Part shown: piece after piece, positions 35,716 to 38,386 of the stretch
Layout of the letters: each line of letters starts with the position of its first letter
How positions within the stretch are numbered: the first letter of the stretch is position 1
Assembly: GCA_964057225.1 (NCBI GenBank)
Contig: OZ059900.1
Coordinates: 26,869,943-26,933,942, forward strand
Length of the DNA stretch: 64,000 nt
Direction of reading: 5' to 3'
Source of the DNA: Auanema rhodensis
Lineage: Eukaryota > Animalia > Nematoda
Notes under the pieces: generated by a model
The model's input: the letters and a program-made list of their open reading frames with translations, nothing else
Database searches by the model: none
What the model was told of the DNA's origin: nothing
Translations under genes and position numbers: made by a program

Positions 35716-36611
35716 TTTTTTTATTACACCTTGTTTTATATTATTTTATATTATAAGAATGTATATCATGTTTATAAATGTTAAAAATTTATTTTATATT
35801 ATATTAATATCTCAAGTAAACCTCAAGTAAATCTCAATTAAATTTCAAGTAACTTTCAAGTAAACATCAGTTTTTTGCTTTCATAATGTTCTATAACAAT
35901 TGATAGTTAAATAATGGAGTTTGTAATTTTAAATTCAAAAGTAAATTTTGAGTTCATGTTTCTTCATAGCTGCAATCAACAGAAGACATGTTCAGAAAAA
36001 TTTACTTCCATTACGTAAATACTGTCTTTCGAGACTAACAGTGTATTAAATAAACGATTTATTTCGATATTTCTTTTTAATTATTATTTACGATATTAAT
36101 AAATATGCGACAAGTCGCTATGAGATCTTGGTAAGAACTGAAAAATGATAATTGGAATTAAGTTAACGTCAGTTCACGGACGTCAAAGTTGACGTGCATA
36201 CAACCAGTTCTATTTTCTTAAAATGTTTAAATGATAATTTAATTTACCCAAATAATTATGAAAAACTTTATATTAACTATTAATTCTGAAGAATCTTATT
36301 CACTTTTCGTAAAAAATACGAAACAAATACTTTTCAATTCACATTCCATCATGTTAACTTCTAATATCACACTGAACACTAAAAAATACATTGAAAATGC
36401 ACTGAAACCTCAGGCTTAGGCTGAAACAGTGAACACAGAATTTTGGATCGAATAACTATTAATAACACGCTCACGCGATTCCTAAAAAGGAATAGTATTG
36501 ATCGAGAGATCAAAGACCGAAAAAATAGAACATACATTAAGAGGAAAAATATCTATTTTTAACAAACTAAACTTCTGGCAGTGTGATACCCTCCTGAACC
36601 CAGAAGAACCC

Positions 36612-37944
36612 ATGGCTGTGCGCCACACGCTCTCCTCTCTCGACCTCTGGTCCAACCTCTCTCTCCCCTCCGGTAACGGCAGCGCATTCTCTCTGCCGCG
36701 CGCCTATCGTGCTAGCCTGACGGCCTCTGTTGAGCTGTCCGGCCAGCGCCGCTCGTGGGGCTCGGCCTTCTCCCCCCTGCCCCGGTCCTCCCCCAAAACA
36801 GTTCCGGAGTCAAATTGTGGCAGTCTGTCGCCCGTGTTGGACTTGTCCCCCTTGACCCCGTCCCTTTTGACTTCCGCGGGGTCGTGCGAGTGCTTGGGTG
36901 CACTATAGCCCGAGTCTCCTCCGTAGGTGACGGGTTCGAGCTCGCTCCCCCCCCCCCCGGCGGCGAGCGCCTCACCCATATCAGCACCCTCGTGGCGCCG
37001 ATTTCCGACTCCAACCGGCTGATTGCGGTCCCCCGTATCTGGGCCGGCACCCCGTCTGTGCCTGCCACGGCTTTCTCCGTCCTGTACAGGGCAGCTCAGG
37101 TTGCTGGGTCCGGTGTGGTTACCAACAGCCTGGTGGGTGAGCCCGGACGCGGTGGGGCGGGCGACGTCCAGCTCGTCCTGCCATACCCCCGCGGCGCCGA
37201 GCTCGCCAATGCCTGCGTCCACGCCCTGAACTACCTCGCGGCCCATTACGAAGCCGCCGAGGCCCCCTCCCACTTTCTGGTGGCCCTCTGGATGGGCCTA
37301 ACCGACCACGTACGTCCCGGTAATCCGTATGGCGACAGTGGAGGTGTGTGCAGTTTGGCCGGTAGAGGTGCCTCTTACCCCCCCCGGCTTCGGTTACCTG
37401 TCACCGGAAGTCGTGCCCTCGACGGCCCTGCCACTCCTCCCACGGGGCGCCTCTCTAGCCCAGGTTGTCCACTGGGTCGACAGCCTAGTCCTCACGCTAG
37501 GGGCGATTGTCTTATCCGTCCCCCCATCAACGGTTAACAAGGGGCGGCTGTACGACGCCGTGTGTGTAGCCCCCGGCGCTAGCCAGTTGGATGACGACGA
37601 GGCAGGGCTCAATGACGCAGCCCGGTGGGATGTCCGTCTGGCCGCCAGCGGGCCCATCGACGCCCTCTGCGGCAGGGTGGTACGCTCTTGGTGCCGGTGC
37701 CTTGGGTTCAAGGCCGAGAGCTCCGGCGCCACCCACCTCGGCTCGGCGGTCCACCACCTATTGGCCGCCGAGGACCTGCTCCCGGCCGGGCCCGAAAACG
37801 AGGTCTGGTTCCCCTGGTTGGAAAACGAGCCGACGGGCCTGGTCGACCCCGACTGGTGCTCCCCAGAGGTTTCTGCCCCCCTCGGCGGACCCGTGTGCCC
37901 GCCTCAGTGTCGGAGCTCAGCCGCCAGCACCCCCCCCCCCCCCC
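36612..37944 (+). pseudogene. Endogenous viral element: Totiviridae-like (Victorivirus/Leishmaniavirus-type) capsid gene, two frameshifts
   Basis: GC-rich, intronless island in AT-rich DNA. Colinear motifs recalled from victorivirus capsids: RAYRASL, FRGVVRVLG, AVPRI, FSVL..AA...G.VVT, LANACVHALNYL, FLVAL..G, GDSGG, PGFG, ALPLL, VHWVDSLVL, GRLY. Reading frames from 36612, 36755-37537 and 37329-37949. Confidence 0.8.
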
Positions 37945-38386
37945 GTTAAGCCTAAGCTCGATATGCCTAAGCCTGAGTATGATAGTTAAGCCTAAGCTCG
38001 ATACGCCTAAGCCTGAGTATGATAGTTAAGCCTAAGCTCGATATGCCTAAGCCTGAGTATGATAGTTAAGCCTAAGCTCGATATGCCTAAGCCTGAGTAT
38101 GATAGTTAAGCCTAAGCTCGATATGCCTAAGCCTGAGTATGATAGTTAAGCCTAAGCTCGATATGCCTAAGCCTGAGTATGATAGTTAAGCCTAAGCTCG
38201 ATATGCCTAAGCCTGAGTATGATAGTTAAGCCTAAGCTCGATATGCCTAAGCCTGAGTATGATAGTTAAGCCTAAGCTCGATATGCCTAAGCCTGAGTAT
38301 GATAGTTAAGCCTAAGCTCGATATGCCTAAGCCTGAGTATGATAGTTAAGCCTAAGCTCGATATGCCTAAGCCTGAGTATGATAGT
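37945..38386 (+). repeat. Near-perfect 40-bp telomere-like tandem array (11 units)
   Basis: (GATAGTTAAGCCTAAGCTCGATATGCCTAAGCCTGAGTAT)n with one visible variant. Two TTAGGC and one TCAGGC per unit on the minus strand. Confidence 0.95.

What the first reader, a model, noticed from the sequence alone, without database searches (positions are those of the whole stretch)
36576..38386. dsRNA-virus capsid cDNA fused to a telomere-like array in the polarity of chromosome-end-primed reverse transcription
Seen: a ~1.37-kb GC-rich intronless island starts ~35 nt before an ATG, ends in C15 (37930-37944), and joins directly to 11 near-perfect 40-bp TTAGGC-containing repeats. On the minus strand the G-rich repeat strand runs 5'->3' into GGGGG... 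and then into the antisense viral sequence. Known: the translated motifs follow the order of Victorivirus-type Totiviridae capsids, and these viruses encode no reverse transcriptase or integrase. Inference: a telomere-like 3' end annealed at a C-run of viral (+)RNA and was extended by a host RT (telomerase or a retroelement RT) to near the 5' end of the RNA. That would be capture of viral RNA at a chromosome end and could serve as a heritable antiviral small-RNA template.
Basis: partly seen in the sequence, partly recalled or inferred. Interest (0 to 1): 0.9.

Follow-up and report, generated by a model that had tools for sequence, protein, structure and literature searches.

The report
Young dsRNA-virus capsid fossil, nematode heterochromatin
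A 1.4-kb piece of a double-stranded-RNA virus capsid gene sits in repeat-rich DNA of what is likely a nematode, between a likely retrotransposon end (LTR) and an internal telomere-like minisatellite, so it was likely captured by an ordinary retrotransposon rather than at a chromosome end.

Summary
The island is real. It is 67% GC and matches Totivirus_coat (E 4e-9) and a public toti-like capsid over residues 106-480 of 867. DNA runs of three studies hold it, and one contig crosses the virus / C-run / repeat junction.

The 40-bp array has no tandem telomere hexamers. It belongs to a minisatellite family found at 8 places in this window on both strands, and host DNA continues on both sides. Its 3' end has no G-run that could pair with a C-run.

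This is a 542-bp dispersed repeat with TGT...ACA ends, and one paralog continues with TGG. It is likely an LTR in the same sense as the capsid. Best reading (0.42): LTR-retrotransposon capture, later cut at a C-run and joined to the minisatellite. Break-primed copying from the repeat stays possible (0.25; at a true chromosome end about 0.1). Other runs show another left junction, so the order of events is open. Toti-like insertions are already known in nematodes.

The parts
36023..36564 (+). LTR-like dispersed repeat (542 bp, 28% GC, begins TGT, ends ACA), same sense as the capsid; LTR identity inferred
   Evidence: paralog contigs begin at 36029-36034. Their loose ends follow the window to 36564 and then diverge: one continues TGG, one continues otherwise, one stops; termini; no target-site duplication; no second copy in the window.
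36409..36421 (+). 13-nt perfect match to the G-strand of the 40-bp unit, inside the LTR-like repeat, inverted relative to the array; unexplained
   Evidence: (0 of 100 shuffles)
36565..36611 (+). 47-nt leader of uncertain origin (viral 5' UTR and/or primer-binding-site remnant), 49% GC
   Evidence: origin not tested
36612..37929 (+). Toti-like virus capsid fragment, about the first 55-60% of the gene, in three frames, with breaks around 36.75-36.87 kb and 37.34-37.39 kb; no introns, no poly(A)
   Evidence: ends near residue 492 of 867 of P0001; no A-run of 5 or more
37930..37944 (+). C15 run at the right junction (11 C in the bridging contig)
   Evidence: No C or G run of 6 or more elsewhere in the window; 11 runs of 5 or more C inside the island
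37945..38386 (-). 11 x 40-bp telomere-derived minisatellite (interstitial telomeric sequence); G-rich strand points towards the virus
38388..39029 (.). 225-bp tandem repeat (2.9 copies) directly after the array, then a 176-bp satellite (39519-55681)

Best explanation
The island is a broken, intron-less copy of the 5' half of a toti-like virus capsid gene, likely made when an LTR retrotransposon's reverse transcriptase switched from the viral (+)RNA onto its own 5' end, and likely cut later at a C-run and joined to an internal telomere-like minisatellite. Shown: capsid identity, genomic presence in three studies, near-identity of the copies (young), the right junction, and the dispersed nature of both flanking repeats. 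Inferred: (1) viral (+)RNA was packaged with the retroelement RNA in the germ line; (2) reverse transcriptase copied it to near its 5' end and jumped to the element, which gave LTR then virus in the same sense; (3) the chimera integrated in transposon- and satellite-rich heterochromatin; (4) the rest of the virus and of the element was lost by a break at a C-run (G-tract on the other strand) that was end-joined to the 40-bp array; (5) the left end was rearranged again in other lineages. The most likely present state is a silent heterochromatic fossil. A small-RNA role is possible and untested.
For: The left flank is a dispersed repeat whose paralogs end exactly at 36564, 47 nt before the ATG. 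It reads TGT...ACA, and one of three paralog loose ends continues TGG, as a primer-binding site would (that these are LTR hallmarks is recalled). Neither side of it has a purine tract and there is no duplication around it, which fits a 5' LTR whose partner is lost better than a clean solo insertion. A contig of run X6 joins unique host flank to the start of this repeat (35905-36055). Precedent: a nodavirus insertion inside a Bel/Pao LTR element in the nematode Bursaphelenchus, attributed to copy-choice (PMC5177903 passages); 543 of 614 LTRs nearest to Aedes insertions share their polarity (10.1101/127498 passages). Junctions lack poly(A), target duplication and repeat-virus homology. C-runs of 5 or more make up only 5% of the island, so a break at one is non-random.
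Against: There is no second LTR near the island. None of 12 long ORFs scanned is a reverse transcriptase, and a motif scan for one found none. The left boundary of the repeat was chosen within about 6 nt of where contigs begin, so the TG start is weaker evidence than it looks. In 3 of 4 runs laid (X1, X4, X6) the viral sequence starts at 36628 beside a different flank, while X4 shares the right junction. That makes the right junction the more stable one and allows the LTR contact to be secondary. The strand polarity fits priming from the repeat equally well.
Confidence: 0.42

Rival explanations
1. Break-primed reverse transcription: a free 3' end inside the 40-bp array (a break in an interstitial tract, or less likely an eroded chromosome end) primed a non-LTR or endonuclease-less reverse transcriptase on the viral (+)RNA. 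Copying started with slippage on a C-run, and the cDNA end was then joined to other DNA.
For: Polarity fits. The junction falls on a C-run, and such runs are 3-5% of the island. The right junction is shared by the window and run X4 while left ends differ. This array is the most telomere-like and homogeneous of the 8 in the window (2.0 hexamers per unit against 0-0.7). 6 of the 8 other telomere-like tracts point the same way (p = 0.14). Precedent: terminons pair with G-rich overhangs (PMC6431247 passages), and Ty1 moves Y' RNA in telomerase-negative yeast (PMC4700185 passages).
Against: The repeat gives no G at the junction and no telomere-complementary stretch lies in the viral part, unlike terminons. 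The array is internal, with 36 kb of host DNA on the side that would be distal. Polarity alone is a one-in-two chance once the repeat is adjacent, and 73% of the window is repeated DNA. The LTR-like end on the left would be a coincidence.
Confidence: 0.25
2. A free viral cDNA, made in the cytoplasm by any retroelement enzyme, was patched into a heterochromatic break by end-joining, or both present junctions are later rearrangements. Neither neighbour then tells how it was captured.
For: The region is a patchwork of transposons and satellites. Copies differ in their left junction and by about 54 letters near 36.76 kb, yet are otherwise about 99.8% alike, so rearrangement here is fast. Trichinella toti-like insertions lie between ordinary genes or near DNA-transposon-derived genes (PMC13483474 passages).
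Against: It does not explain why a repeat end falls within 47 nt of the likely start codon, nor why the other end is a C-run.
Confidence: 0.28
3. Assembly chimera or contaminant: viral or foreign sequence joined to host repeats by an assembly error at the homopolymer.
For: The junction is a long homopolymer next to a high-depth repeat. The bridging contig has 30 letters on the repeat side, one short of the tool's 31-letter rule. The holders are guessed DNA runs.
Against: 9 runs of 3 studies hold 0.57-0.66 of the words. Contigs are nearly identical to the window over 1.0-1.3 kb, and one crosses the junction in a short-read assembly. An RNA virus would not appear in DNA libraries with breaks in its frame.
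Confidence: 0.05

Closest known systems
Totilivirus (Ghabrivirales) capsid and RdRp EVEs of Trichinella (PMC13483474; passages seen)
   Same: Partial capsid of a toti-like dsRNA virus endogenised in a nematode genome, several of them recent.
   Different: Those are about 500-bp pieces; in the passages seen, 'telomer' and 'retrotranspos' occur 0 times. Here the piece is 1.3 kb with defined junctions. Relationship to Totilivirus not tested (no sequence on hand).
eBxnv-1 of Bursaphelenchus xylophilus (PMC5177903; passages seen)
   Same: RNA-virus gene in a nematode genome with LTR-retrotransposon sequence, strain-variable, recent; copy-choice capture proposed.
   Different: eBxnv-1 is a nodavirus polymerase between two LTRs with pol remnants and is expressed. 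Here it is a dsRNA-virus capsid with one LTR-like end, no pol, and a minisatellite on the other side.
LTR-associated non-retroviral EVEs of Aedes aegypti (10.1101/127498; passages seen)
   Same: Same-sense neighbourhood of LTR and viral fragment in repeat-dense DNA.
   Different: piRNA-cluster function is shown there; nothing on small RNA is known here.
Terminons / endonuclease-less Penelope-like elements (PMC6431247; passages seen)
   Same: Polarity: G-rich telomeric strand runs into the cDNA.
   Different: Their RNA carries reverse-complement telomeric repeats and a hammerhead ribozyme at the 3' end; neither is found here, and the array is not a pure telomere tract.
Totivirus_coat family PF05518 (homologues P0001, P0002; Leishmania RNA virus capsid recalled as the identity of PDB 7ns2/6y83, which names only 'Capsid protein')
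   Same: Profile match, and 37% and 35% identity to two unnamed capsids; P0002 matches PF05518 at E 5e-135 and solved capsids at E 4e-19.
   Different: Very divergent: only 2 relatives among 1.84 billion representatives; genus cannot be assigned without the polymerase.

Membership tests
Non-retroviral EVE of a toti-like (Ghabrivirales) virus | Homology to a toti-like viral protein | tested here: met
Non-retroviral EVE of a toti-like (Ghabrivirales) virus | Present in host DNA and joined to host sequence | tested here: met
   guessed-DNA runs of 3 studies; X4 contig 37060-37974 crosses the right junction (30 letters on the repeat side)
Genus Victorivirus | RdRp phylogeny and capsid/RdRp stop-restart junction | not testable with these tools
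   The insert ends at about 57% of the capsid; no RdRp present
Telomere (chromosome end) | Tandem perfect hexamer repeats | tested here: not met
   no tandem hexamers in 37945-38386; best 22 of 40 identity to a pure tract
Telomere (chromosome end) | Terminal position | tested here: not met
   At least 25 kb of sequence on each side in the window; whether the family also caps chromosome ends could not be tested (no genome)
Interstitial telomeric sequence (working definition of PMC6800518) | Four or more perfect hexamers on one strand within 100 nt of each other | tested here: met
   22 hexamers, 15-25 nt apart
LTR-retrotransposon capture | LTR with TG...CA ends, dispersed copies, primer-binding site after it | tested here: inconclusive
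   Ends and dispersal met; TGG follows in one paralog contig, and only after 11 nt in the window; no tRNA match testable
LTR-retrotransposon capture | Second LTR, gag-pol remnants, target-site duplication | tested here: not met
LINE-type target-primed retrocopy | 3' poly(A) and target-site duplication | tested here: not met
Terminon-type end-primed insertion | RNA 3' end complementary to the telomeric overhang, with hammerhead ribozyme | tested here: not met
   no complementarity; no Rfam match in 35900-39500 at E up to 1
Small-RNA-producing antiviral EVE | Small RNAs mapping to the insert | not testable with these tools
   No small-RNA data on hand

The most novel reading that the evidence does not exclude
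The 40-bp telomere-derived repeat forms or formed chromosome ends (or recurrently broken interstitial tracts) in this nematode. Its free G-strand 3' end was extended directly on a viral RNA by a host reverse transcriptase, and the end was then buried by further accretion of repeats. This would be chromosome-end-primed capture of an RNA virus, for which my searches found no report.
Probability: 0.1. Interest if true: 0.85.

Novelty: new member of a known kind. Interest (0 to 1): 0.35.

Why it matters
It records a recent germ-line infection of a likely nematode by an undescribed, very divergent toti-like virus. Because it is young and differs between samples, it is a usable case for asking how RNA-virus sequence enters nematode genomes and whether it yields inherited small RNAs. 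If the repeat-primed reading were right, it would add a new route of virus capture, at telomere-like ends; the evidence here does not require that.

Tried and rejected
No whole genome is held, so the survey of other insertions and of chromosome ends could not be run.

Protein searches: word-index searches with island frames found nothing, and the third, with P0001, returned only itself. PDB sequence search with the island found nothing. The ESM Atlas gave only unrelated low-support hits. A fold of P0001 on a 4-row alignment had mean pLDDT 30.7 and was not used. The first frame from the ATG did not match P0001 or P0002 above shuffles.

DNA and RNA searches: IMG/VR held no relative. Metagenome scans for the 40-bp unit and for a motif of the left repeat found 0. 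Rfam found nothing at gathering score in the window or around the island. Three transposases were not in the protein collection, so they did not place the host. Earlier-findings look-ups were empty.

Sequencing runs: no RNA holder listed; this says nothing on expression. Only 4 of the 14 listed runs were laid. In one search no listed contig covered about 36540-36627 (the window's own left junction) or 36377-36447, and X1 and X4 did not cover 35880-36021. By the tool's caveat such holes prove nothing, so the window's left junction is unconfirmed, not refuted. Depth of the 40-bp unit was tens to hundreds of times that of the island, but the tool warns this is no copy number.

Rejected: telomere healing after the insert (would need the opposite strand polarity); a LINE-type retrocopy (no poly(A), no duplication); a clean solo-LTR insertion (no duplication); telomerase copying 1.3 kb of foreign RNA (no support).

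Full report
Observation. A GC-rich island (66.9% over 36571-37929, against 22-37% around it) ends in C15 at 37930-37944. It joins 11 copies of a 40-bp unit at 37945-38386, 10 of them identical. On the minus strand the order is repeat, G15, antisense island.

The island is a toti-like capsid fragment. Of 7 frames scanned, two match Pfam Totivirus_coat: E 4e-9 above cut-off (profile 100-238 of 759) and E 5.6e-4 below cut-off (276-423), in colinear order. A full HMMER scan of 1.84 billion representatives found 2 relatives: P0001 (867 aa, 37%, E 2e-13) and P0002 (773 aa, 35%, E 2e-4). Both are unnamed. P0001 carries a precomputed PF05518 tag but no hit at E 0.01 in my own scan. P0002 matches PF05518 at E 5e-135 and solved capsid proteins at E 4e-19. 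P0001 aligns to the island over residues 106-294 and 309-480 in two frames, and the insert stops near residue 492. So it is roughly the first 57% of a capsid gene, broken around 36.75-36.87 kb and 37.34-37.39 kb, with no polymerase. The ATG at 36612 fits the start by position, but that frame did not match the homologues above shuffles. The genus cannot be named.

It is genomic and young. Of 14 runs listed, 11 hold the stretch or part of it, 9 of them 0.57-0.66 of its words, from 3 studies; all are guessed DNA. I laid 4 of the 14. Contigs of 0.9-1.3 kb differ from the window inside the island by three substitutions and by homopolymer lengths. In run X4 one contig runs 37060-37974, through a shorter C-run into the repeat; it has 30 letters on the repeat side, one fewer than the tool asks for a bridge. 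In X1, X4 and X6 the viral sequence begins at 36628 next to a different flank and carries about 54 more letters near 36.76 kb. So at least two structural versions exist, alike at the right end where it could be seen and different at the left.

The array is not a telomere. It has two perfect hexamers per unit (0 of 20000 shuffles) but none in tandem, and only 22 of 40 letters match a pure tract. The same family occurs at 8 places in the window, 6 on one strand and 2 on the other, about 4.0 kb or 6.3% in all. The other arrays are diverged, with 6-15 mismatches of 40 at best. It meets the working definition of an interstitial telomeric sequence under which C. elegans has 1229 sites (PMC6800518, passages). 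The window is a patchwork of transposons and satellites: 73% has a paralog within it, and it holds Tc1/mariner, hAT and integrase frames. A pure hexamer tract at 56833-56874 and the hexamer itself (telomere of C. elegans, 10.1101/2022.09.04.506531, abstract and passages) suggest a nematode host; this is inferred, not shown. 6 of the 8 other telomere-like tracts share the array's orientation, which is not significant (p = 0.14). At the junction the repeat's G-strand ends ...TTAGGCTTAAC, so it offers no G to anneal to a C-run. The run itself looks viral in type or added: the host part of the window has no C or G run of 6 or more, while the island has 11 runs of 5 or more, 5% of its bases. A junction on such a run is therefore non-random, but it fits slippage at the start of copying as well as a later break at a G-tract.

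The left flank is the new evidence. Paralogous contigs begin at 36029-36034, and their loose ends follow the window up to 36564, where they diverge: one goes on with TGG, one with other letters, one stops. The interval 36023-36564 is 542 bp, 28% GC, starts TGT and ends ACA, with no purine tract beside it and no target duplication. These are the marks of an LTR followed by a primer-binding site (recalled), in the same sense as the capsid, 47 nt from the ATG. Against: no second LTR and no reverse transcriptase in the window. The left edge was picked within about 6 nt of where contigs start, and three other runs show the virus beside another flank. A 13-nt perfect match to the 40-bp unit inside this repeat is unexplained.

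Mechanism. These viruses encode no reverse transcriptase (established knowledge), so a host enzyme copied the RNA. I rank four readings. (1) LTR-element copy-choice capture followed by truncation at the C-run and joining to the minisatellite, 0.42. (2) Free cDNA or wholly secondary junctions, 0.28. (3) Break-primed copying from the repeat's 3' end, 0.25, of which a true chromosome end is about 0.1 and telomerase itself about 0.01. (4) Artefact, 0.05. The first has direct precedent in a nematode (PMC5177903, passages) and in Aedes (10.1101/127498, passages). The third works like terminons (PMC6431247, passages) and like retroelement activity at failing telomeres (PMC4700185, passages), but it fails the terminon membership tests.

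Novelty. Toti-like capsid insertions are described in Trichinella (PMC13483474, passages) and in planthoppers (PMC10636211, search listing only). A toti-like virus infects potato cyst nematode (10.64898/2025.12.02.691819, passages). I found no report of telomere-primed capture of an RNA virus. The search for endogenous viral + telomer + non-retroviral + reverse transcri + telomerase gave 4 papers: one read in passages (PMC5742130) was off topic, and three were seen as listings only. Searches were seen as listings. The library holds open-access papers only, and no supplements were read. Verdict: a real, young insertion from a new, divergent virus and a new member of a known kind. The telomere-priming claim is geometrically possible but not favoured. 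Interest 0.35.

Noticed in passing
window 32387-32458: 2.5 perfect copies of a 29-bp unit that resembles the nematode SL1 spliced leader (resemblance recalled), followed by an ATG and a gene-like stretch; could be a retrocopied 5' end. Rfam gave no SL match. A 52-bp piece of the 176-bp satellite lies just before it.
   Followed up: partly
window 56833-56874: A pure tract of 7 tandem GCCTAA hexamers, same orientation as the array next to the virus; the main hint that the host is a nematode.
   Followed up: partly
window 5534-6562 (+), 17707-18735 (-), 19104-20144 (-), 28897-29946 (-): Four long, apparently open Tc1/mariner transposase frames; the first two are near-identical.
   Followed up: partly
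window 22642-24692 (+), 27407-27880 (-): hAT transposase fragments: BED finger and dimerisation domain matched; the third piece had no Pfam hit.
   Followed up: partly
window 61865-63534 (-): Frameshifted integrase with chromodomain (rve, Chromo), Maverick/Polinton-like by recall.
   Followed up: partly
window 2867-2973, 35481-35515, 59274-59438: 10-bp TTCTAGAA-rich arrays resembling heat-shock elements (recalled), recurring next to the 40-bp and 11-bp arrays, as if parts of one composite mobile element.
   Followed up: no
window 39519-55681: 176-bp satellite, about 91 copies, 96-98% identical.
   Followed up: no
window 55756-55977: 222-bp imperfect palindrome, MITE-like.
   Followed up: no
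contigs of runs X1, X4, X6: Abundant variants of the 40-bp unit carry an extra tandem telomere hexamer, i.e. are more telomere-like than the window's array.
   Followed up: no
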